Of a DNA stretch of 39,760 bases, positions 1 to 38,900 are shown piece after piece. The notes under the pieces are model-generated. The model was not told the origin of the DNA, ran no database searches, and saw only the letters and a list, made by a program, of their open reading frames with translations. Positions within the stretch are counted from its first letter, which is position 1. Every line of letters starts with the position of its first letter. The stretch comes from a virus (Duplodnaviria > Heunggongvirae > Uroviricota > Caudoviricetes). The position numbers and the translations under genes were made by a program. The stretch lies in IMG/VR virus record IMGVR_UViG_2711768002_000014. The stretch is one strand, 5' to 3'.

Positions 1-573
1 ATGTTTTGCGAAGAAAAAGTAGCTCAAATGGCTGCATACCTACTTCTTAAGCGAGGTGGGCGCATGGCATATCTGAAATTGATGAAGCTGCTCTATCTGT
101 CTAACCGCAAGTCGATTTTGAAGCATGGCAGGATGATCGGCGAAGATAGCCTTTACTCTATGAAATTTGGTCCAGTCATGTCGAATACGCTGAACTTGAT
201 TCGTGGTAAGGCTGAAGGTATTGGTGACTACTGGTACAACCTGATAGAGACGAACGGGCATGATGTGTTGTTGCGTTCAGATCCGAGGGAAATGGATGCA
301 GACGAGGTCTTTGATGAGTTGAGCCGTGCAGATATCCGGATTTTAGATGAAATCTATTCTCTGTATGGGCATATGAACCGATTTGATCTCGCAAACATGA
401 CGCATTTAGAAAGCGTTTGTCCAGAGTGGCACAATCCTGGCAATTCTCGTAAGCCTATAGACCTGAAAGAAATGCTGATCAGTGAGGGTAAAAGCGAGGA
501 TGAGGCTAATCGTATAATTGGCAAAATGGAAGAATCTCAGAAACTTAAGGAATTTTCTTTGCAATTATCATGA
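1..573 (+). CDS. Panacea-domain (DUF4065, GepA/SocA-like) phage-associated protein; putative antitoxin
   Basis: 190-aa ORF starting at window base 1; motifs AAYLLLKRGG, YLKLMKLLYL and FGPV resemble remembered DUF4065 signatures; stop overlaps the next ORF start (ATGA at 570-573). Confidence 0.5.
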   Translation: MFCEEKVAQMAAYLLLKRGGRMAYLKLMKLLYLSNRKSILKHGRMIGEDSLYSMKFGPVMSNTLNLIRGKAEGIGDYWYNLIETNGHDVLLRSDPREMDADEVFDELSRADIRILDEIYSLYGHMNRFDLANMTHLESVCPEWHNPGNSRKPIDLKEMLISEGKSEDEANRIIGKMEESQKLKEFSLQLS

Positions 574-989
574 CGGATTATCAGCCATACAGGAAAGGAA
601 CTGTGCTTGCCCCAACTGGGCCATGCAATCATCTTCATGTGATTTGTAATGATCCTGTTTATTACCCCGTTAACGATTGTTATTGTGTTTTAGTTGTTAA
701 TATTTCTAGTATCAAGGATGGTGTCCCCCACGATCCGTCTTGCGTCTTGAATTCTGGTGATCATCGCTTTATCAAGCATCCAAGTTATGTTGTTTACGCT
801 GAAGCTATAATTTGGCGAGTGGATAACATGGTTAGAAAGCAGCGATCGGGTGAGATTTCCGTTCATGATGATATGCCAGAAGCTACATTCAATAGAATTC
901 TGGACGGTTTTGATATATCTGATGAAGTTACGCCAAAGAACCTTAAATTTAAAAATAAATATTGCGTATCATCTATTGATGATGAGTAA
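570..989 (+). CDS. hypothetical protein translationally coupled to the Panacea protein; candidate toxin/effector partner
   Basis: 139-aa ORF whose ATG overlaps the upstream stop; no recognisable domain; Cys/His-containing soluble protein, no TM segment. Confidence 0.4.
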   Translation: MTDYQPYRKGTVLAPTGPCNHLHVICNDPVYYPVNDCYCVLVVNISSIKDGVPHDPSCVLNSGDHRFIKHPSYVVYAEAIIWRVDNMVRKQRSGEISVHDDMPEATFNRILDGFDISDEVTPKNLKFKNKYCVSSIDDE

Positions 990-1028
990 ACAACAGGAAT
1001 TGTTTCGGTATAGCTTCTGGAGTTTTCT

Positions 1029-1202
1029 ATGGAAGATCAAAAAGCAACCAAGCCACAGGTTAAGTTCGACACAATGAAAGCATTCGCAGGTATGGGTGCT
1101 GCTGTTGAAGTTCTGATGAAGGCTGCTCCTAATGCGTTCACTCACGCTACTGTCTCTGGTAAAGAGCAGCAGGGTAAGCTTCGTCGTCGCAAAGCAGCAT
1201 GA
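1029..1202 (+). CDS. small hypothetical protein (57 aa)
   Basis: Below the ORF-track cutoff; GGAG about 8 nt upstream of ATG 1029; codons of highly-expressed E. coli type (ggt, gct, cgt, aaa); followed directly by a terminator. Confidence 0.3.
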   Translation: MEDQKATKPQVKFDTMKAFAGMGAAVEVLMKAAPNAFTHATVSGKEQQGKLRRRKAA

Positions 1203-1221
1203 TCATAGCTGGTGCTTTTTG

Positions 1222-1247
1222 AAAACCCGCCTTTAGGCGGGTTTTTT
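1222..1247. terminator. bidirectional rho-independent terminator
   Basis: aaaacccgcc-ttta-ggcgggtttttt: GC stem with A-run upstream and T-run downstream, between convergent plus and minus genes. Confidence 0.6.
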
Positions 1248-1249
1248 CT

Positions 1250-1531
1250 TTAGTGATGTTCTTTGCCCTTCTGTTTGCCTGTTCTGACCTGTTCCCACTC
1301 GATACGTCCTTCTTCTCGTCTTTTGTCTATGTATTCCGCAAGATCCTGAATATTGATGCAACGTTTTGCTTTTTGTGATGTACCGATGCGATATGTAGGT
1401 ACAGGCAACTTACAAGCGTTTGCTTTTGCTTCTGCTGTGGCTGGACTCATACCAAAGTATTTTTGACTAACTGCTGAGAGTTCAATGTTTGGGGTATTGA
1501 ATTCAGCCATCAGTAAAAACAAGGTATTCAT
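1250..1531 (-). CDS. PrtN-family / excisionase-like winged-helix DNA-binding protein
   Basis: 93-aa ORF; resembles remembered PrtN/Xis-like small proteins (YFGMSPATAEAKA...LPVPTYRIG); last gene of the leftward operon. Confidence 0.45.
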   Translation of the reverse strand: MNTLFLLMAEFNTPNIELSAVSQKYFGMSPATAEAKANACKLPVPTYRIGTSQKAKRCINIQDLAEYIDKRREEGRIEWEQVRTGKQKGKEHH

Positions 1532-1567
1532 ATCATTTCTCCATCATAACCGGCTGCACCCGGTGAG

Positions 1568-2362
1568 TTACTTATTCATTTCAATAATATTATTTTCTAT
1601 CATTGATTTATTTAAAACCAAAGAAGGAGCAAGATGGTTGTCTATTTTAAACAATGCATAACTTTTAAACTGTTGGTGATATCCGTAACTAATAAGGATG
1701 CTAGAAAAATCTCTTAATTCATCTTCTTTTAAAAAATTAAAATGAAATGGGTTGTCACCATTTATGAACAATGAAACATCTATTATGCAGTATTTCTCTC
1801 CGTTGTCATTTGCATAGAAAAAAATATAAGACATTCTGTTTGTTAAGACAATGCCATTAAATTTTCTTATGTCTGTAGCTATTTTGTTTTCCATGTTTGG
1901 TGCTACATATTTATTTTCAGAAATACATTTAATTTCATCTCCAGATGTCGTGATTATATAAAAATGAAACTTATCAGAAATATCTAACTTAACTACGCCA
2001 TCATTATTGTAAAGGCTGCTAAATTTTGGTGGTTCAACTTTTAAAGAATCATAGTTCTTTAAAAGAAGAGGGGAGTCAAATTTAATAACTTGTAGTATCC
2101 CTTTACCTTCAACCTCCATATTGATTGAAGATATAGCAATTGCATTATCTCTTTTATTATTCAGGATTATGGTTGATATATGCATGTCATATATTCTACT
2201 TGCATTTGCTGAATACGACACTGTCACCTTTTTTGATATTTTTTGCACGCCAAAATATATAGTGAAGGCAGCGGCAAGAATAGATAAGAATTTAATGTCA
2301 AATAAGGACCATAGCCACATTAGTTGCTCAATTGCTTCAGAGTTAATCATTTGCTTTACCAT
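1568..2362 (-). CDS. hypothetical membrane-anchored protein, AT-rich accessory gene
   Basis: Long ORF in a strongly AT-rich stretch (about 1560-2500); N-terminal hydrophobic segment WLWSLFDIKFLSILAAAFTIYFGV; start uncertain (ATGs at 2401, 2362, 2350). Confidence 0.5.
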   Translation of the reverse strand: MVKQMINSEAIEQLMWLWSLFDIKFLSILAAAFTIYFGVQKISKKVTVSYSANASRIYDMHISTIILNNKRDNAIAISSINMEVEGKGILQVIKFDSPLLLKNYDSLKVEPPKFSSLYNNDGVVKLDISDKFHFYIITTSGDEIKCISENKYVAPNMENKIATDIRKFNGIVLTNRMSYIFFYANDNGEKYCIIDVSLFINGDNPFHFNFLKEDELRDFSSILISYGYHQQFKSYALFKIDNHLAPSLVLNKSMIENNIIEMNK

Positions 2363-2538
2363 TATCGCTGTAATACAACACATGTGTGTATATATACGCA
2401 ATGCAATTATTTTGCAAGTGCTTCATTTACTATCAATAGCTACGTCACGTTATTGTTTAATGGTTCTTTATAGGGGCGGCAATAGTTAAAATTATCGCTT
2501 CCGTAAATGCCCCCGCAGGGGCATTTGCAGTAATGAAA

Positions 2539-3363
2539 TCAGGCGGTGAAAGTACCAATAAAGGTTTCTACTTTGCTGTCTTTGAATTTCTCAACAAGCA
2601 GATCACGAAATTCGTTAGCCATTTCTTCCTGTACCGCTTCCAGCTGAATAATGCGCAGAACCAGTACAGGACGATCGCCAGTGATAATGCTGAGGCGTAA
2701 TTTAAACGGACGTTCTTTCAGACCTTCAAACGGAACGCATTTAAATTCAAATGCCACTGGCATAATGTCTTTGGTCTTCGCTTCGACAGACTCCATCAGG
2801 GAGCGTTTGCCGCTGAAGTCATTATCTTCAAAATCAGCGGTCTGGTTCGCTTCAATTGTGATTTTACGGATCGCCGCAGCCGCTTTGGTTGCCTGAATGG
2901 CGTCACCATTAGCATCAAAGCCCACAAGGTAGTCGGCCCAGTCTTCAATCCATTCTGCCAGTGACTTCTGGGAGTTACGCTCGCCATTAACAGACAACAG
3001 AGCAGAGAACGGAGCTGTCTTTTTCAGTTTGAGAGTGGCGGTGTTATCTGCGTGACCTGGTTCATCAATAGTACCCAGGTTAAGAACACTGACGGCACGC
3101 ATATTATCAGCATCGATAAAGCAGCGGGTGCCTTCATCTGCAAGATCTTTAGAATAACGAGTAAAGTCATCGATGCTGGCAGTGGAAAGCGCACCACGGA
3201 AACGGAAACGATTTAAATTTAATTTTTCCAGATCATGAATGCGGAAATTCTCAGGCAATGCCACAGCATCGGCACCAATCTTACTGATAATTTCATTAAC
3301 ACCCTGAGCAGAAATAAGGGCATGGATTTGATTAATTGCGGTTGCGTCTAAGTTCTGAGACAT
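2539..3363 (-). CDS. YfdQ-like (DUF2303) conserved prophage protein
   Basis: 274-aa ORF, same length and gene-order context as remembered CPS-53 YfdQ; typical GC and codon usage. Confidence 0.55.
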
Positions 3364-3428
3364 AATAAGTCCTCACTATATAAAGATATTCAGTGATGAG
3401 ATAAATAATCGGTTAATTAAGAACGATA

Positions 3429-3791
3429 TTAATGACCTGCTGCGCGGAGTTTTCCGTCAGGTTCACCGGCAAGAGTCAGTAATTGTCCCTGGTCTTCCTG
3501 CAGAATAGTCAGGCGACCACCGCGATTGACATACATCGGCGTTTCGGTGGTGTCTTCTTCGGAAATTTTCCCGCGGTTAGTCGGGCGAACATATGAGAGT
3601 TTGTGTTTGATTTTCACACGGTTCTCATCAAATGGTTCGATTTCCAGGTTGAGTGAGACCTTACCTTTGGTTTTCGTGTTCATCACACCGGAAGCGACTT
3701 CACTGAGAACTGCGCCGATTTTGGTTTCAAATACGCCGCCGTCCAGCTCCCCAATAAATGCCTGCACATCAGTACTGCGTTCGCTAGCCAT
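3429..3791 (-). CDS. YfdP-like conserved prophage protein (120 aa)
   Basis: ATG at 3789-3791 (minus) preceded by AGGAG about 8 nt upstream; the N-terminal extension in the track ORF is Cys/Arg-rich and unlikely to be coding. Confidence 0.5.
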   Translation of the reverse strand: MASERSTDVQAFIGELDGGVFETKIGAVLSEVASGVMNTKTKGKVSLNLEIEPFDENRVKIKHKLSYVRPTNRGKISEEDTTETPMYVNRGGRLTILQEDQGQLLTLAGEPDGKLRAAGH

Positions 3792-3811
3792 TTTGCTGCT
3801 CCTAATCATAT

Positions 3812-3975
3812 CGACCCTGCAAGGTCGGTTGGTTTCTCCACAAAACAGAGAAGAACACCTGCGGTGGCAGCCGCCCGGATGGATTTGGTTATGAGCCCGT
3901 CGTCCGGTGATGCTCTTCTCTGTTTTGTAAAAAGAGCGGTACCAGCCGGAAGCAAGTGTACAAACTGGTACCGCC
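3812..3975 (-). promoter_or_regulatory. structured 5' leader of the leftward transcript (multiple stem-loops)
   Basis: 14-bp perfect inverted repeat caaaacagagaaga (3841-3854) / tcttctctgttttg (3914-3927); 10-bp inverted repeat gcggtaccag (3945-3954) / ctggtaccgc (3966-3975); cgacc..ggtcg at 3812-3828. Confidence 0.3.
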
Positions 3976-4415
3976 AAAGCAGTGGCTGTTGTGGTGACCG
4001 GTGCTGATCTCCGGCTTGCGGTTATTTCAGACTCTCACGGGCGTTTAATTGCCCCGCCGAACAGCTCTTTTCCGCATTAGCTGCAATGTCTTTCGCGCAT
4101 CAGCCTGCGCATTCACCACAACGCTGAGAGCACTTAGCCAGTTACGGCACCACACTTTGTCGCGGTTCCATAAATGTCCTCATCGTTGCACCCTGGTCTC
4201 TTCCCAGGCGTCAAACCGAATCGCCACGCTGGTTAGGCGTCTTATCAGCATCATCATTGACTTGCACATTCCGGCTACCTGGTTTGTTTGCCCGAGCAAG
4301 GAGTGGATTGTCCCCTTTAACGTCCCCAGACCGCTAACGACGCATGTGCCATACGCCGTGTTACAACCAAATTTTGTTTAATCTTGCCTGTGCTGTGTTT
4401 CTTTTAGATACATTA

Positions 4416-4432
4416 TGTATCCCAAAGGTACA
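4416..4432. promoter_or_regulatory. putative left operator (OL-like) half-site pair TGTATC-N5-GGTACA
   Basis: Same motif as the palindrome between repressor and cro; lies just beyond the repressor 3' end, where a pL operator is expected. Confidence 0.4.
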
Positions 4433-4443
4433 TTGTCAAGTAT

Positions 4444-4465
4444 AAAAAAACCTGCCGAAGCAGGT
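4444..4465 (-). terminator. rho-independent terminator downstream of the repressor gene
   Basis: cctgc-cgaag-cagg hairpin flanked by an A7 run (a T-run on the minus-strand transcript). Confidence 0.5.
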
Positions 4466-4477
4466 TATAAATATTGA

Positions 4478-5152
4478 TTAGGCCTTTATTATGTATCTTC
4501 TTGGTTTTCCTGAGAAAATCACTGTACCAATTATAGAGCAATTACCGTTAATCTTAATGTAAGGCTCAGGCCAGTTTGGGTTTAATGCTTTGAGATAACG
4601 CTGTGTTCCATCTTCTATCAACCGCTTGAAGGTGGTTTCGCCTGTATCGTGCATCAATGCAATAACGTCGTCACCGTGGCAGGCAGGGACTTCAGGATCA
4701 ACAAAAATCATGTCTCCCGGGCGGTACTCATCAATCATTGAATCACCAATCACCCGCAAGATATAAGTCATTTCGCCACAGGGTACAGGGCAGGGATAAG
4801 TTTCTGCTGTGCTCAAATCAACCTCAGAATAGCCAACTTCTTTCCATGCTCCGGCCTGTACCCATGATATGACAGGGACTAACGTTATTTGTTTGTTAGT
4901 GATTGAAACGTCAGGTTTTTTTGTGATGTTCGTTGTCTGGTGTTCTTGATCAAGCCATCCGACAGGCAGGTCGAAACATTTTTCGATGTGCCGTGCCATG
5001 CTGTCACCGATATTTTTAGTTGCACCATCTCCCATAAACCTGCTGGTCTGGGTTGGCTCGCGATCAATCATGGTGGCAAAGGAAGAATTCCCGCCAACAC
5101 CATCTCTCAGTTTTCTGGCGTTAGACCGCCGGATGTCATGGACTGTTTTCAT
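4478..5152 (-). CDS. CI-like prophage repressor (N-terminal HTH, C-terminal S24 LexA-like peptidase)
   Basis: 224 aa; C-terminal domain with the GDSM serine motif and a downstream Lys (FKRL); divergent from the cro-like gene across an operator-containing spacer. Confidence 0.85.
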   Translation of the reverse strand: MKTVHDIRRSNARKLRDGVGGNSSFATMIDREPTQTSRFMGDGATKNIGDSMARHIEKCFDLPVGWLDQEHQTTNITKKPDVSITNKQITLVPVISWVQAGAWKEVGYSEVDLSTAETYPCPVPCGEMTYILRVIGDSMIDEYRPGDMIFVDPEVPACHGDDVIALMHDTGETTFKRLIEDGTQRYLKALNPNWPEPYIKINGNCSIIGTVIFSGKPRRYIIKA

Positions 5153-5169
5153 AAAGAAATTAAAACCTT

Positions 5170-5186
5170 TGTACCGATAAGGTACA
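5170..5186. promoter_or_regulatory. operator: perfect palindrome TGTACC-gataa-GGTACA
   Basis: 17-bp dyad in the 90-bp repressor/cro intergenic region. Confidence 0.5.
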
Positions 5187-5219
5187 AGTATCTTGAAGGT
5201 TCATCTCAATCATGTAATA

Positions 5220-5236
5220 TGTATACCGGAGGTACA
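5220..5236. promoter_or_regulatory. second, weaker operator-like site TGTATA-ccgga-GGTACA
   Basis: Matches the half-site motif with two mismatches; overlaps the cro RBS (GGAGG). Confidence 0.3.
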
Positions 5237-5242
5237 TATTGT

Positions 5243-5443
5243 ATGAAAGCGTATTGGGACTCTTTAACCAAAGAACAGCAGGGTGAGTTGGCCGGAAAAG
5301 TTGGCTCAACACCAGGCTACTTACGGCTGGTTTTCAATGGTTATAAAAAAGCCAGTTTTGTGCTGGCTAAAAAACTTGAGCAATGCACGTCAGGTGCAAT
5401 TACGAAATCTGACTTAAGACCGGATATCTATCCGAAAGATTAA
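5243..5443 (+). CDS. Cro-like regulator (YdaS-like HTH)
   Basis: 66 aa; GGAGG 10 nt upstream of ATG 5243; C-terminal LRPDIYP resembles remembered YdaS-type proteins; positioned opposite the repressor. Confidence 0.65.
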   Translation: MKAYWDSLTKEQQGELAGKVGSTPGYLRLVFNGYKKASFVLAKKLEQCTSGAITKSDLRPDIYPKD

Positions 5444-5474
5444 CAGAACACCTTCAATTTTTAACCACAGAACG

Positions 5475-6038
5475 ATGAGGCTAACCGTGGGTAAGCATCA
5501 CTGGAAAGTAGAAAAACAGCCTGAGTGGTACGTGAAAGCTGTCAGAAAAACTATCGCGGCGTTGCCGGGGGGTTACGCTGAAGCTGCTGAGTGGCTGGAT
5601 GTAACAGAGAACGCTTTATTCAACCGCCTTCGTGCAGATGGCGATCAGATTTTCCCGCTGGGATGGGCAATGATTTTACAGCGCGCGGCTGGCACTCACT
5701 ACATTGCGGATGCTGTCGCACAGTCTGCTGGTGGGGTGTTTGTATCGCTTCCTGAAATTGAGGAAGTAGAGAACGCCGATATAAACCAGCGCCTGCTGGA
5801 AGTCATCGAACAGATCGGGAGTTACTCAAAGCAGATTCGTTCGGCAATCGAAGATGGGGTAGTGGAGCCACACGAGCAGACAGCAATTAATGATGAGTTG
5901 TATCTGTCAATTTCGAAGCTCCAGGAGCATGCAGCACTGGTCTACAAAATCTTTTGCGCTCCAGAAAAGAGTGACGCCCGCGAGTGTGCAGCTCCGGGCG
6001 TCGTGGCGTTTTGTGTCTGTGGAGAAACTAACGCATGA
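5475..6038 (+). CDS. CII-like / YdaT-family regulatory protein
   Basis: 187-aa ORF immediately after cro; resembles the remembered phage CII (CP76/YdaT) family; start uncertain (weak RBS). Confidence 0.4.
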   Translation: MRLTVGKHHWKVEKQPEWYVKAVRKTIAALPGGYAEAAEWLDVTENALFNRLRADGDQIFPLGWAMILQRAAGTHYIADAVAQSAGGVFVSLPEIEEVENADINQRLLEVIEQIGSYSKQIRSAIEDGVVEPHEQTAINDELYLSISKLQEHAALVYKIFCAPEKSDARECAAPGVVAFCVCGETNA

Positions 6039-14912: not shown

Positions 14913-15135
14913 NNNNNNNNNNNNNNNNNNNNNNNNNNNNNNNNNNNNNNNNNNNNNNNNNNNNNNNNNNNNNNNNNNNNNNNNNNNNNNNNNNNNNNNN
15001 NNNNNNNNNNNNNNNNNNNNNNNNNNNNNNNNNNNNNNNNNNNNNNNNNNNNNNNNNNNNNNNNNNNNNNNNNNNNNNNNNNNNNNNNNNNNNNNNNNNN
15101 NNNNNNNNNNNNNNNNNNNNNNNNNNNNNNNNNNN
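14913..15135. other. assembly gap (223 N)
   Basis: Run of n. Confidence 1.
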
Positions 15136-29881: not shown

Positions 29882-30866
29882 ATGCAGGATATTCCACAGG
29901 AAACACATCATGAGACGACACGCCTCACTCAGTCAGCCCAGGTGGTGCTCTGGGAAATCGATCTGACAGAGGTCGGTGGAGAACGTTATTTTTTCTGTAA
30001 TGAGCAGAACGAAAAAGGTGAGCCGGTCACCTGGCAGGGGCGACAGTATCAGGCGTATCCCATTCAGGGGACGGGATTTGAACTGAACGGCAAGGGCAGT
30101 GCTGCCCGTCCGACACTGACGGTTNNNNNNNNNNNNNNNNNNNNNNNNNNNNNNNNNNNNNNNNNNNNNNNNNNNNNNNNNNNNNNNNNNNNNNNNNNNN
30201 NNNNNNNNNNNNNNNNNNNNNNNNNNNNNNNNNNNNNNNNNNNNNNNNNNNNNNNNNNNNNNNNNNNNNNNNNNNNNNNNNNNNNNNNNNNNNNNNNNNN
30301 NNNNNNNNNNNNNNNNNNNNNNNNNNNNNNNNNNNNNNNNNNNNNNNNNNNNNNNNNNNNNNNNNNNNNNNNNNNNNNNNNNNNNNNNNNNNNNNNNNNN
30401 NNNNNNNNNNNNNNNNNNNNNNNNNNNNNNNNNNNNNNNNNNNNNNNNNNNNNNNNNNNNNNNNNNNNNNNNNNNNNNNNNNNNNNNNNNNNNNNNNNNN
30501 NNNNNNNNNNNNNNNNNNNNNNNNNNNNNNNNNNNNNNNNNNNNNNNNNNNNNNNNNNNNNNNNNNNNNNNNNNNNNNNNNNNNNNNNNNNNNNNNNNNN
30601 NNNNNNNNNNNNNNNNNNNNNNNNNNNNNNNNNNNNNNNNNNNNNNNNNNNNNNNNNNNNNNNNNNNNNNNNNNNNNNNNNNNNNNNNNNNNNNNNNTCG
30701 CGGCGATGAGTGCGGTTATCACGGTCCGGCGGTCGCGGATGAATATGATCAGCCGACGTCCGATATCACGAAGGATAAATGCAGCAAATGCCTGAGCGGC
30801 TGTAAGTTTCGCAATAACGTCGGCAACTTTGGCGGCTTCCTTTCCATTAACAAACTTTCGCAGTAA
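29882..30866 (+). CDS. L: minor tail protein L (interrupted by an assembly gap)
   Basis: N-terminal 81 aa and C-terminal ~55 aa (RGDECGYHGPAVADEYDQPTSDITKDKCSKCLSGCKFRNNVGNFGGFLSINKLSQ) match remembered lambda L; middle replaced by N. Confidence 0.85.
30125..30697. other. assembly gap (573 N)
   Basis: Run of n; flanks do not preserve the L reading frame. Confidence 1.
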
Positions 30867-35975: not shown

Positions 35976-38900
35976 ATGGCAGTAAAGATTTCAGGTGTAC
36001 TGAAAGACGGCACAGGAAAACCGGTACAGAACTGCACAATCCAGCTGAAAGCAAAACGTAACAGCACCACGGTGGTGGTGAACACGCTGGCCTCAGAAAA
36101 TCCGGATGAAGCCGGGCGTTACAGCATGGACGTTGAGTACGGTCAGTACAGCGTTATTCTGTTGGTGGAAGGATTCCCGCCGTCACATGCCGGGACCATC
36201 ACCGTGTATGAAGATTCCCGACCCGGTACGCTGAATGATTTTCTCGGTGCCATGACGGAGGATGATGCCCGTCCTGAGGCACTGCGCCGCTTTGAACTGA
36301 TGGTGGAAGAGGTGGCGCGTAACGCGTCCGCGGTGGCACAGAACACGGCAGCCGCGAAGAAATCAGCCAGCGATGCCAGCACATCAGCCCGTGAGGCGGC
36401 AACCCGTGCGACTGATGCTGCAGGCTCAGCACGAGCAGCCAGCACGTCAGCCGGACAGGCCGCTTCGTCGGCTCAGTCTGCGTCTTCCAGCGCAGGAACG
36501 GCATCAGCAAAGGCCACTGAAGCATCAAAAAGTGCTGCCGCTGCAGAGTCCTCAAAAAGCGCGGCGGCCACCAGTGCCGGTGCGGCGAAAACGTCAGAAA
36601 CGAATGCGGCAGCGTCACAACAATCAGCTGCCACTTCTGCATCCACCGCGACCACGAAAGCGTCAGAAGCAGCCACCTCAGCCAGAGATGCGTCGGCTTC
36701 AAAAGAGGCGGCAAAATTATCAGAAACGAGCGCAGCTTCGAGCGCCAGTAATGCCGCTTCCTCGGCAACGGCGGCAGGAAATTCCGCGAAGGCGGCAAAG
36801 ACGTCTGAGACAAACGCTAAGTCCTCTGAAACGGCAGCAGCACAGAGTGCCTCCGCAGCAGCAGGCTCAAAAACAGCGGCTGCGTCGTCTGCCAGTGCAG
36901 CGTCAACAAGTGCCGGGCAGGCCTCAGCCAGTGCTAGCGCCGCCGGAAAATCGGCAGAAAGCGCCGCATCGTCCGCTTCAACAGCCACAACGAAGGCTGG
37001 CGAAGCCACTGAACAGGCCAGTGCAGCAGCGAGGTCTGCTTCCGCAGCGAAGACATCGGAGACGAACGCGAAAGCGTCGGAGACCAGCGCAGAATCCTCA
37101 AAAACGGCTGCCGCATCGTCCGCCAGTTCGGCGGCGTCATCGGCATCATCGGCGTCTGCTTCAAAAGATGAGGCGACCAGACAAGCGTCCGCAGCGAAGG
37201 GCAGCGCCACGACAGCATCCACGAAGGCGACAGAGGCTGCTGGCAGTGCGACGGCGGCAGCACAGAGCAAAAGTACGGCGGAATCCGCGGCAACGCGCGC
37301 CGAGACAGCAGCAAAACGGGCAGAGGATATTGCATCCGCCGTGGCGCTTGAGGATGCGAGCACGACGAAAAAGGGGATAGTACAGCTCAGTAGTGCGACT
37401 AATAGCACGTCTGAAACGCTGGCGGCAACGCCAAAGGCAGTAAAAGCAGCCAATGACAATGCTGAGAAACGTCTGCAGAAAGACCAGAACGGCGNNNNNN
37501 NNNNNNNNNNNNNNNNNNNNNNNNNNNNNNNNNNNNNNNNNNNNNNNNNNNNNNNNNNNNNNNNNNNNNNNNNNNNNNNNNNNNNNNNNNNNNNNNNNNN
37601 NNNNNNNNNNNNNNNNNNNNNNNNNNNNNNNNNNNNNNNNNNNNNNNNNNNNNNNNNNNNNNNNNNNNNNNNNNNNNNNNNNNNNNNNNNNNNNNNNNNN
37701 NNNNNNNNNNNNNNNNNNNNNNNNNNNNNNNNNNNNNNNNNNNNNNNNNNNNNNNNNNNNNNNNNNNNNNNNNNNNNNNNNNNNNNNNNNNNNNNNNNNN
37801 NNNNNNNNNNNNNNNNNNNNNNNNNNNNNNNNNNNNNNNNNNNNNNNNNNNNNNNNNNNNNNNNNNNNNNNNNNNNNNNNNNNNNNNNNNNNNNNNNNNN
37901 NNNNNNNNGAACAACATTAACGCGGTCAGTAAAACAGACTTTGCTGATAAGCGTGGTATGCGTTATGTGCGGGTTAACGCTCCTGCAGGTGCAACATCTG
38001 GAAAATATTACCCTGTTGTTGTTATGCGTTCTGCTGGCTCAGTAAGCGAACTGGCATCAAGGGTCATTATCACCACGGCAACGCGAATCGCAGGCGATCC
38101 GATGAATAACTGCGAGTTTAACGGATTTGTTATGCCTGGTGGCTGGACTGACAGGGGGCGTTATGCTTATGGAATGTTCTGGCAATATCAAAACAATGAA
38201 CGAGCCATCCACTCAATAATGATGAGTAATAAGGGCGATGATTTGCGCTCTGTGTTCTATGTTGATGGCGCTGCTTTCCCTGTTTTTGCGTTTCTCGAAG
38301 ATGGCCTGTCAATATCCGCACCTGGTGCTGATCTCGTTGTTAATGATACGACCTATAAGTTTGGGGCAACAAATCCGGCGACTGAATGTATCGCGGCGGA
38401 CGTTATCCTTGATTTTAAGAGTGGGCGTGGTTTTTATGAGTCTCATTCGTTAATCGTTAACGATAACTTGTCGTGCAAAAAACTTTTTGCCACAGACGAA
38501 ATTGTAGCGCGTGGTGGTAATCAGATTCGAATGATAGGTGGGGAGTATGGTGCATTATGGCGTAATGATGGCGCTAAAACTTACCTGCTGCTTACCAATC
38601 AAGGTGATGTTTATGGTGGCTGGAATACATTAAGACCGTTTGTTATTGATAACGCAACCGGCGAACTGGTTATTGGAACCAAACTGTCTGCAAGTCTGAA
38701 CGGTAACGCATTGACAGCAACAAAGCTGCAAACGCCAAGACTGGTTTCTGGTGTTGAGTTTGATGGTTCCAAAGATATTACTTTAACCGCCGCGCATGTG
38801 GCTGCTTTTGCCAGAAGGGCAACGGATACATATGCCGATGCGGATGGTGGCGTTCCATGGAATGCCGAATCAGGCGCTTACAATGTCACCCGCTCTGGCA

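What the first reader, a model, noticed from the sequence alone, without database searches (positions are those of the whole stretch)
1568..2401. AT-rich membrane-anchored unknown gene embedded in the early-left operon
The gene sits in a sharply AT-rich island relative to its neighbours and encodes a protein with one N-terminal TM helix and a soluble domain of unrecognised family. The pL operon of lambdoid phages is a classic site for superinfection-exclusion or abortive-infection genes, so this is a candidate novel exclusion/defence gene.
Basis: partly seen in the sequence, partly recalled or inferred. Interest (0 to 1): 0.6.

Follow-up and report, generated by a model that had tools for sequence, protein, structure and literature searches.

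The report
Mobile AT-rich membrane-anchored prophage cargo gene
A 925-bp AT-rich cassette in an E. coli lambda-like prophage encodes a membrane-anchored protein of an uncharacterised family whose relatives sit next to known anti-phage genes, so it is a credible but untested new phage-defence or exclusion gene.

Summary
The gene is real and intact, but it probably starts at 2350 (260 aa), not at 2401. It is the most AT-rich stretch of the whole window: 29% GC against 52%, z = -4.8. It has one N-terminal hydrophobic helix. It matches no Pfam, NCBIfam, PADLOC or PDB family, only PHROG 14996, whose function is unknown.

New findings:
- The gene lies in a discrete 925-bp cassette (1564-2488). Two conserved hairpins bound it, in a slot between the xis-like gene and yfdQ that holds other cargo in sister prophages.
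- 99 of 5,426 complete E. coli genomes carry it.
- The family is small (221 cluster representatives among 1.84 billion) and always has the same architecture.
- Relatives lie in other mobile-element cargo sites. These include the P2 gpQ-gpA defence hotspot, positions directly after type I and type II restriction-modification genes, positions beside PDC-S31 candidates and a retron-type reverse transcriptase, and prophage ends.
- Flanking charges suggest that the two soluble domains face the cytoplasm. These are an Ig-like sandwich and an alpha/beta domain with no solved structural relative.

Verdict: a plausible stand-alone defence or exclusion gene of a new family. The support is genomic context only. 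No phenotype, topology or expression has been shown. Moderate interest.

The parts
1564..2488 (.). AT-rich cargo cassette (925 bp, about 30% GC)
   Evidence: Similarity to other phages and E. coli prophages stops at 1563 and resumes at 2489/2490. GC is 29.8%. 99 of 5,426 complete E. coli genomes carry it, always between the same flanks.
1568..2350 (-). Coding sequence, 260 aa plus stop (the longest ORF extends to a TTG at 2401)
   Evidence: RefSeq CDS WP_047654657.1. PHROG 14996 at E 2.9e-178, covering residues 18-277 of the long ORF. Homologues start at the same methionine. pN/pS is 0.16-0.57.
2246..2323 (-). N-terminal hydrophobic helix (residues about 10-35), the probable membrane anchor
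   Evidence: Kyte-Doolittle peak of 1.68, and the only such segment. AlphaFold helix 4-39. Marginal, because D18 and K20 lie within it.
1928..2227 (-). Ig-like beta-sandwich domain (residues 42-141), holding the conserved NKRDN motif, P94 and the nearly invariant S111; the nearly invariant C142 lies one residue beyond its end
1574..1885 (-). C-terminal alpha/beta domain (residues 156-259)
2351..2488 (-). Cassette-borne upstream region with promoter-like hexamers (TTGATA-16-CAAAAT at 2436-2409; TACACA-18-GATAAT at 2390-2361)
   Evidence: Consensus scan only, and the number of such sites is no higher than in shuffled sequence. The region is 98.6-99.3% conserved among E. coli alleles.
2505..2526 (.). 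Conserved backbone hairpin just after the yfdQ stop codon; right border of the slot
   Evidence: 9-bp stem AAATGCCCC/GGGGCATTT. Present in all three slot variants. Phage PhiR47_1 carries a paired C>A / G>T change that keeps the stem.
1549..1564 (.). Conserved backbone hairpin (CCGG-ctgcac-CCGG) just upstream of the xis-like gene's ribosome-binding site; left border of the slot
   Evidence: Three slot variants are alike up to this hairpin and diverge immediately after it.
1250..1531 (-). Left flank: PrtN-family / excisionase-like gene (context, not cargo)
   Evidence: Pfam PF11112 at E 3e-23 and phrog_1300 excisionase at E 1e-39.
2539..3363 (-). Right flank: yfdQ (DUF2303) (context, not cargo)
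   Evidence: Pfam PF10065 at E 8e-93.

Best explanation
Window 1564-2488 is a horizontally mobile single-gene cargo cassette (a moron-like insertion). It sits in a variable slot of a lambda-like E. coli prophage, between the xis-like gene and yfdQ.

It encodes a 260-aa protein that a single N-terminal helix tethers to the inner membrane. Two non-enzymatic soluble domains probably face the cytoplasm: an Ig-like sandwich and an alpha/beta domain with no solved structural relative.

The most likely role is stand-alone protection of the lysogen against other phages. My preferred mechanism has the cytoplasmic domains binding a phage component at or just after genome entry. The membrane-anchored protein then either blocks the infection at the membrane or perturbs the membrane and aborts it.

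Shown: the cassette and its borders, the rarity of the family, its constant architecture, its mobility among unrelated elements, and its neighbourhoods.

Inferred: membrane insertion and orientation, expression in the lysogen, the defence function and the mechanism.
For: Cassette:
- Sharp homology breaks at 1563 and 2489, bounded by two conserved hairpins.
- It is the GC minimum of the whole window.
- The same slot holds ExoVIII/Ea22/EaE/HD-hydrolase genes in phage PhiR47_1.
- In sister prophage TB4328 the slot holds a different AT-rich gene plus yfdR. Its 288-aa product has sub-threshold hits to two membrane-protein families, SieB and Csx27.

Real gene: intact in all alleles with pN/pS of 0.16-0.57.

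Stand-alone gene: there is no conserved partner across contexts.

Mobility: relatives occur beside xis-int in Citrobacter and in another lambdoid prophage. They also occur in a Klebsiella podovirus-like prophage, at two prophage ends, in a P2-like prophage and on a plasmid-like contig.

Defence association of relatives:
- In the P2 gpQ-gpA hotspot (hotspot defined in PMC9122126).
- 17 bp after an Eco57I-like methylase plus XamI-like endonuclease.
- 5 bp after a type I HsdS gene.
- Directly followed by PADLOC candidate PDC-S31 in two unrelated contigs, at E 5e-31 and 5e-40.
- Beside a retron-type reverse transcriptase.
- Beside an HNH restriction-like gene.
- In an island with Barstar and HEPN_AbiV genes.

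Orientation: in 111 of 128 full-length family members, the 15 residues after the helix hold more K/R than the 15 before it.

Non-enzymatic: no acidic or histidine residue is conserved across the family.
Against: - There is no experimental evidence of any kind.
- No PADLOC model matches the protein.
- The context sample is small (about 13 informative loci), was not drawn at random and has no background control.
- The hydrophobic helix is marginal in this allele because of D18 and K20, and no dedicated topology predictor was available.
- The promoter-like sites are no more numerous than in shuffled sequence. Expression in the repressed prophage is therefore unproven.
- An AT-rich gene of this kind could be silenced by H-NS.
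- Ig-like sandwiches are more typical of periplasmic proteins.
- pN/pS of up to 0.57 indicates fairly relaxed constraint.
Confidence: 0.45

Rival explanations
1. Classical superinfection exclusion from the periplasmic side. The helix would act as a signal anchor with the opposite orientation, so the Ig-like domain lies in the periplasm. There it blocks DNA injection or a receptor or entry component, as small prophage Sie proteins do.
Against: The flanking charges point the other way in 111 of 128 members, and the N-terminal tail is acidic. Only one cysteine is conserved across the family, so there is no conserved disulfide pair. Relatives occur in elements with quite different entry routes, and next to intracellular defence genes.
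Confidence: 0.17
2. An accessory early lytic-cycle function of the phage itself, expressed from pL after induction or infection. Examples would be membrane-directed host takeover or a Kil-like effect. It would not be a lysogen-protecting gene.
For: The gene is co-oriented with yfdP, yfdQ and the xis-like gene downstream of a pL-like promoter, and no canonical terminator lies between them. In related phages the slot holds ordinary early-left genes such as Ea22 and EaE.
Against: Relatives lie outside phage early operons, after restriction-modification genes on plasmid-like and chromosomal contigs and at prophage ends. Only 99 of the 2,761 E. coli genomes that match the 2-kb stretch including both flanks carry the gene.
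Confidence: 0.12
3. A lysogenic-conversion or host-fitness factor unrelated to phages, for example envelope stress or colonisation. Alternatively a counter-defence protein.
For: Morons at prophage ends often encode such factors. The isolates that carry the gene come from many hosts.
Against: There is no signal peptide, lipobox or adhesin-like feature. The neighbourhood is dominated by defence genes rather than virulence genes. Counter-defence proteins are usually small and soluble (general knowledge).
Confidence: 0.13
4. Functionally inert or decaying foreign DNA: a silenced AT-rich hitch-hiker with no current role.
For: Constraint is relaxed, with pN/pS up to 0.57. One genome has an IS1 element inserted in the cassette region. 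No family annotation exists anywhere.
Against: The frame is intact in the alleles examined. Length and architecture are conserved down to about 20% identity, across 221 cluster representatives. The AlphaFold models are confident.
Confidence: 0.08

Closest known systems
PHROG 14996 (phage protein family of unknown function)
   Same: The same family: full-length match at E 2.9e-178 over 260 of 260 profile positions.
   Different: It carries no functional information. Nothing similar was found by translated search in 50,697 deposited phage genomes.
PdpSau of Staphylococcus aureus prophages and lactococcal AbiP (membrane-anchored single-protein abortive infection)
   Same: A single prophage accessory gene of about 260-280 aa, with one N-terminal membrane helix and a cytoplasmic soluble domain. 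It replaces other cargo at a fixed prophage position (PMC10127798).
   Different: No sequence or fold relationship. PdpSau and AbiP have an OB-like nucleic-acid-binding domain. This protein has an Ig-like sandwich plus an alpha/beta domain with no solved structural relative, and it is not basic (pI 6.2). PdpSau lies in the lysis module of Gram-positive phages.
Prophage superinfection-exclusion proteins (P22 SieA/SieB, HK97 gp15, lactococcal Sie2009)
   Same: Prophage-borne inner-membrane proteins encoded near the lysogeny or early region that exclude other phages (PMC10883804, listed; the rest is general knowledge).
   Different: No Pfam SieB match for this protein. Those proteins are smaller or span the membrane several times and lack a 220-residue soluble part. 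The orientation predicted here is cytoplasmic.
Cargo of the P2 gpQ-gpA hotspot (old, tin and others)
   Same: A relative of about 24% identity occupies exactly this hotspot in a P2-like prophage. The hotspot is a reservoir of anti-phage systems (PMC9122126).
   Different: The window's copy lies in a lambdoid prophage, not in P2. The hotspot also holds genes with no shown defence role.
SNIPE (membrane-bound nuclease that cuts phage DNA during injection)
   Same: A constitutively membrane-located single protein of E. coli that acts at genome entry (PMC13190303).
   Different: SNIPE is a nuclease. No nuclease motif, conserved acidic or histidine residue, or nuclease fold was found here.

Membership tests
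PHROG 14996 | Full-length match to the family profile | tested here: met
   E 2.9e-178, residues 18-277 of the long ORF against profile positions 1-260 of 260.
Known or candidate anti-phage defence families (PADLOC-DB 2.0.0) | Significant match to any defence-protein model | tested here: not met
   No family at E <= 1 for the window protein, and none at E <= 0.1 for relatives P0005, P0008 and P0028.
Defence gene by guilt by association | Family members recurrently adjacent to known defence genes or inside recognised defence hotspots | tested here: met
   Relatives lie in the P2 gpQ-gpA hotspot, after type II and type I restriction-modification genes, before PDC-S31 (twice), beside a retron-type RT and an HNH endonuclease, and in an AbiV/Barstar island. 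The sample is small and was not drawn at random, and there is no background control.
Defence gene by function | Reduces plating or spread of at least one phage when expressed | not testable with these tools
   Needs plaque and liquid-infection assays.
Moron (independent cargo unit in a phage genome) | Present or absent between otherwise similar phage genomes, with deviant base composition | tested here: met
   Homology breaks at 1563 and 2489, other cargo in the same slot, 29% GC against 52%.
Moron (independent cargo unit in a phage genome) | Own promoter and terminator, expressed from the repressed prophage | tested here: inconclusive
   Promoter-like hexamers at 2436-2409 and 2390-2361, but no more sites than in shuffles. 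There is no canonical terminator after the stop codon; the downstream hairpin belongs to the backbone.
SieB (Pfam PF14163) and other Sie families | Profile match | tested here: not met
   No hit for the window protein. Only the unrelated slot gene of the sister prophage has a sub-threshold SieB hit, E 1.3e-3.
Single-pass inner-membrane protein, N-out / C-in | One transmembrane helix with more positive charge on the C-terminal flank | tested here: inconclusive
   111 of 128 members have more K/R after the helix than before it. The helix of this allele is marginal. No dedicated predictor or experiment was available.

The most novel reading that the evidence does not exclude
The protein founds a new family of single-protein, membrane-tethered anti-phage immunity. 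A cytoplasm-facing Ig-like domain and a previously unseen alpha/beta fold would recognise a phage component at the inner membrane. The gene would travel as a minimal cassette among lambdoid, P2-like and podovirus-like prophages, plasmids and restriction-modification loci. In some lineages it may work together with PDC-S31 (DUF2971).
Probability: 0.4. Interest if true: 0.6.

Novelty: new variant of a known kind. Interest (0 to 1): 0.45.

Why it matters
If the gene protects lysogens, it adds a compact defence family that no current detector sees: Pfam, NCBIfam and PADLOC all give nothing. Its soluble part has no solved structural relative, so a new way of recognising or blocking phages at the membrane is possible.

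It would also define a hairpin-bounded cargo slot next to xis in a widespread group of E. coli prophages. About half of the complete E. coli genomes match the flanking stretch. Such a slot could be mined for further cargo, as the P2 and P4 hotspots were.

The wider impact is limited. Many single-gene prophage defences are already known, and this one is carried by only about 2% of E. coli genomes.

Tried and rejected
Searches that found nothing useful:
- Pfam, NCBIfam and PADLOC scans of the protein, and a Pfam scan of 34 family members, gave nothing consistent. Hits were sub-threshold only: Ig_TMEM131L_3, DUF2393 and DUF3124.
- A profile search of PDB sequences gave 0 hits at E <= 10.
- Foldseek against viral structure models gave nothing at E <= 1e-3.
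- The AlphaFold-database library was unavailable.
- Nucleotide and translated searches of 50,697 phage genomes found no copy of the cassette.
- A scan of 185,579 species-representative genomes found one locus.
- Wider scans failed because the motifs are too variable, or returned only three short contigs. A formal defence-association statistic could therefore not be computed.
- The second word-indexed protein search added only three distant relatives and one short fragment.
- Rfam found nothing relevant in 1-6000, and no tRNA was found.
- No direct repeats flank the cassette.
- Searches of the paper library's full text for the RefSeq accessions, the PHROG id and PDC-S31 found nothing. A search of the DefensePredictor supplements for four RefSeq accessions also found nothing.

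Ideas considered and rejected:
- The antisense ORF 2121-2489 (+), as a by-product of AT-rich sequence.
- An O-antigen-modifying gtr-type gene, because there is only one helix.
- A conserved two-gene system. Neighbours differ between contexts, except for PDC-S31 in two loci.

Full report
**What is at the coordinates.** The longest reading frame on the minus strand runs 1568..2401 (TTG start, 277 aa). Three lines place the true start at the ATG at 2350, giving 260 aa:
- RefSeq annotates a 783-bp CDS there (WP_047654657.1).
- The PHROG 14996 profile aligns to residues 18-277 over its full 260 positions (E 2.9e-178).
- Every homologue starts with the equivalent M-I/L-N.

The CDS is 29.0% GC. Over all N-free 783-bp windows of the 39.8-kb sequence, the minimum falls exactly at 1568. 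The remainder averages 52.2% (sd 4.9), so z = -4.8. Four E. coli alleles keep the frame with pN/pS of 0.16-0.57. This points to a real gene under moderate constraint.

**A discrete cassette in a variable slot.** Similarity to deposited phages and to other E. coli prophages stops at 1563 and resumes at 2489/2490. Alignment of three slot variants shows that they agree up to a small hairpin just upstream of the xis-like gene's ribosome-binding site (1549-1564). They agree again from a 9-bp-stem hairpin just after the yfdQ stop codon (2505-2526). The latter carries a stem-preserving double change in phage PhiR47_1.

Between these borders the cargo differs:
- PhiR47_1 holds ExoVIII, Ea22, EaE and HD-hydrolase genes.
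- mEp460 holds a longer run of early genes.
- Sister prophage TB4328 holds yfdR plus a different AT-rich (28-31% GC) 288-aa gene. That gene has weak SieB and Csx27 hits.

The window's cassette consists of 138 bp of upstream DNA, the CDS and 4 bp. It is present once in each of 99 of 5,426 complete E. coli genomes, always in this context. By contrast, 2,761 genomes match some part of the 2-kb stretch 1000-3000, which includes both flanks. No copy exists in 50,697 deposited phage genomes, by nucleotide or translated search.

The prophage is lambda-like. It has a LexA-like repressor at 4478-5152 and a cro-like gene, with a pL-like promoter at 4439-4412, and lambda-type structural genes to the right. 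The cassette lies about 1.5 kb from the left prophage end, next to a Panacea-domain antitoxin and toxin pair.

**The protein.** One hydrophobic segment (about residues 10-35) is the only candidate membrane helix. It is marginal in this allele because D18 and K20 interrupt it, leaving a 15-residue core. It is more hydrophobic in many relatives.

AlphaFold (pLDDT 80.4) gives a long N-terminal helix, a beta-sandwich (42-141), a short disordered linker, and an alpha/beta domain (156-259).
- Foldseek against viral models finds nothing at E <= 1e-3.
- Pfam, NCBIfam, PADLOC and PDB sequence profiles are all negative.

Across a 34-member alignment that reaches down to about 20% identity, only K37 and P94 are invariant. 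Y32, N65, S111, C142 and Y179 are nearly invariant. No conserved acidic or histidine residue suggests catalysis.

In 111 of 128 full-length members, the 15 residues after the helix carry more K/R than the 15 before it, and the N-terminal tail is acidic. By the positive-inside rule, the soluble domains should therefore be cytoplasmic. This is an inference; no dedicated predictor was available.

**The family and where it lives.** A word-indexed search of 5.8 billion proteins found only 11 clusters, from E. coli, Citrobacter and Klebsiella. An exhaustive profile search of 1.84 billion cluster representatives found 221 at E <= 1e-3. Nearly all full-length ones are 235-275 aa with the same architecture. 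Only one of 185,579 species-representative genomes carries a close relative.

The contexts I could read were:
- Citrobacter, and a further lambdoid prophage: immediately upstream of a xis-like gene and an integrase.
- Klebsiella: in a podovirus-like prophage, between a phage methylase and DUF1367.
- Buttiauxella: in an AT-rich island at a prophage end, beside an HNH restriction-like gene.
- A P2-like prophage: between the portal gene and gpA. This is the cos-proximal hotspot that holds old and tin and many anti-phage systems (PMC9122126).
- A plasmid-like contig: 17 bp after an Eco57I-like methylase and a XamI-like endonuclease.
- A short contig: 5 bp after a type I specificity gene.
- Two unrelated contigs: directly followed by PADLOC candidate PDC-S31 (DUF2971), at E 5e-31 and 5e-40.
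- One contig: beside a retron-type reverse transcriptase.
- One contig: two genes from a type II methylase.
- An island with Barstar, HEPN_AbiV and DMP19 genes.
- An integrase island with DUF2726.

In enterobacterial hosts the gene is always far more AT-rich than its surroundings. No partner is conserved across contexts.

**Interpretation.** The gene behaves as a stand-alone, horizontally mobile cargo gene. It lands in the accessory slots of unrelated mobile elements, and often beside defence genes. That is the signature by which many anti-phage genes were first found, so defence or exclusion is the best-supported role.

The predicted architecture is a membrane tether, cytoplasmic non-enzymatic domains and no partner. 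This resembles single-protein membrane-anchored abortive-infection proteins such as PdpSau and AbiP (PMC10127798) in design, but not in sequence or fold. I therefore favour recognition of a phage component at the cytoplasmic face of the membrane. This would be followed either by a block at genome entry or by membrane perturbation.

The main rival keeps the defence role but reverses the orientation, giving a periplasm-facing injection blocker. Other rivals are an early lytic-cycle accessory function driven by pL, a host-fitness or counter-defence role, and inert foreign DNA.

Nothing here shows expression in the lysogen. The promoter-like hexamers in the cassette's upstream DNA are no more frequent than in shuffled sequence. 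No phenotype is known. The paper library's full text mentions neither the RefSeq accessions nor the PHROG id, and the DefensePredictor supplements do not list the four RefSeq accessions searched there.

**Verdict.** The interpretation as a candidate exclusion or defence gene is partly supported, more by the contexts of relatives than by the pL-operon argument. It is a new protein family within a known kind of system, namely a prophage-borne single-gene membrane-anchored protection factor. Interest is moderate, since many such genes are known. The lack of any detectable relative for the C-terminal domain and the clean hairpin-bounded slot nevertheless make it a tidy experimental target.

Noticed in passing
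window 1-989 (+): A Panacea-domain (SocA-like) protein (1-573) overlaps by 4 bp a 139-aa protein of phrog_19071 (570-989). The equivalent pair in phage PhiR47_1 is annotated as PanA antitoxin and PanT toxin. This is a second conflict-type cargo at the same prophage end.
   Followed up: partly
L021 3072-3938 (E. coli TB4328, same slot as the finding): The sister prophage carries a different AT-rich (28-31% GC) 288-aa hydrophobic protein in the same slot. It has sub-threshold hits to SieB (Pfam E 1.3e-3) and Csx27 (PADLOC E 1.8e-5). The slot next to xis seems to collect AT-rich membrane-protein genes.
   Followed up: partly
window 2505-2526 and 1549-1564: Two conserved hairpins bound the cargo slot. 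The one after yfdQ has no U-tract on either strand. In PhiR47_1 it shows a paired C>A / G>T change that keeps the stem, which suggests a selected RNA or DNA structure, perhaps a recombination joint or a transcript-end element.
   Followed up: partly
window 14913-15135, 30125-30697, 35234, 37495-37908: Runs of N (1,211 bases in all) mask parts of the structural-gene region. They create false low-GC minima in naive composition scans.
   Followed up: yes
window 3978-4477: A GC-rich (about 53%) stretch between yfdP and the repressor gene has no annotated gene. It holds a 110-aa plus-strand ORF with no Pfam match. Positions 4116-4359 match (84%) a region annotated as tRNA-Arg in another E. coli genome, yet ARAGORN finds no tRNA. 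A strong pL-like promoter (4439-4412) and a terminator-like hairpin after the repressor gene (4466-4449) lie at its right edge.
   Followed up: partly
E. coli E89, NZ_CP121157.1 4392545-4394251 (hits H21/H93): In one genome an IS1X2 element interrupts the match to the cassette region (1560-2490). The exact insertion point was not determined.
   Followed up: no
L016 4003-4818 and L026 7838-8776: In two distant, unrelated contigs the family member is followed directly by a PDC-S31 / DUF2971 protein. The two neighbours are homologous to each other (E 1e-9). This may be a two-gene variant of the system.
   Followed up: partly
L014 14355-15278 (P2-like prophage): A 307-aa gene between the C repressor and the integrase matches a PADLOC TIR effector model (E 2.6e-9). 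This is a second likely defence cargo in the same P2-like prophage that carries the family member.
   Followed up: no
L005-L008 6015-7448 (Citrobacter): A 477-aa protein with no family match always lies about 550 bp upstream of the Citrobacter homologue, in at least three different left-hand backbones. It could be co-transferred cargo.
   Followed up: partly
window 1029-1246 (+): A 57-aa ORF, annotated as hypothetical in RefSeq, is followed by the strongest intrinsic-terminator-like hairpin of the region (1221-1246, 11 pairs plus a T-run). It converges on the end of the xis-like gene.
   Followed up: no
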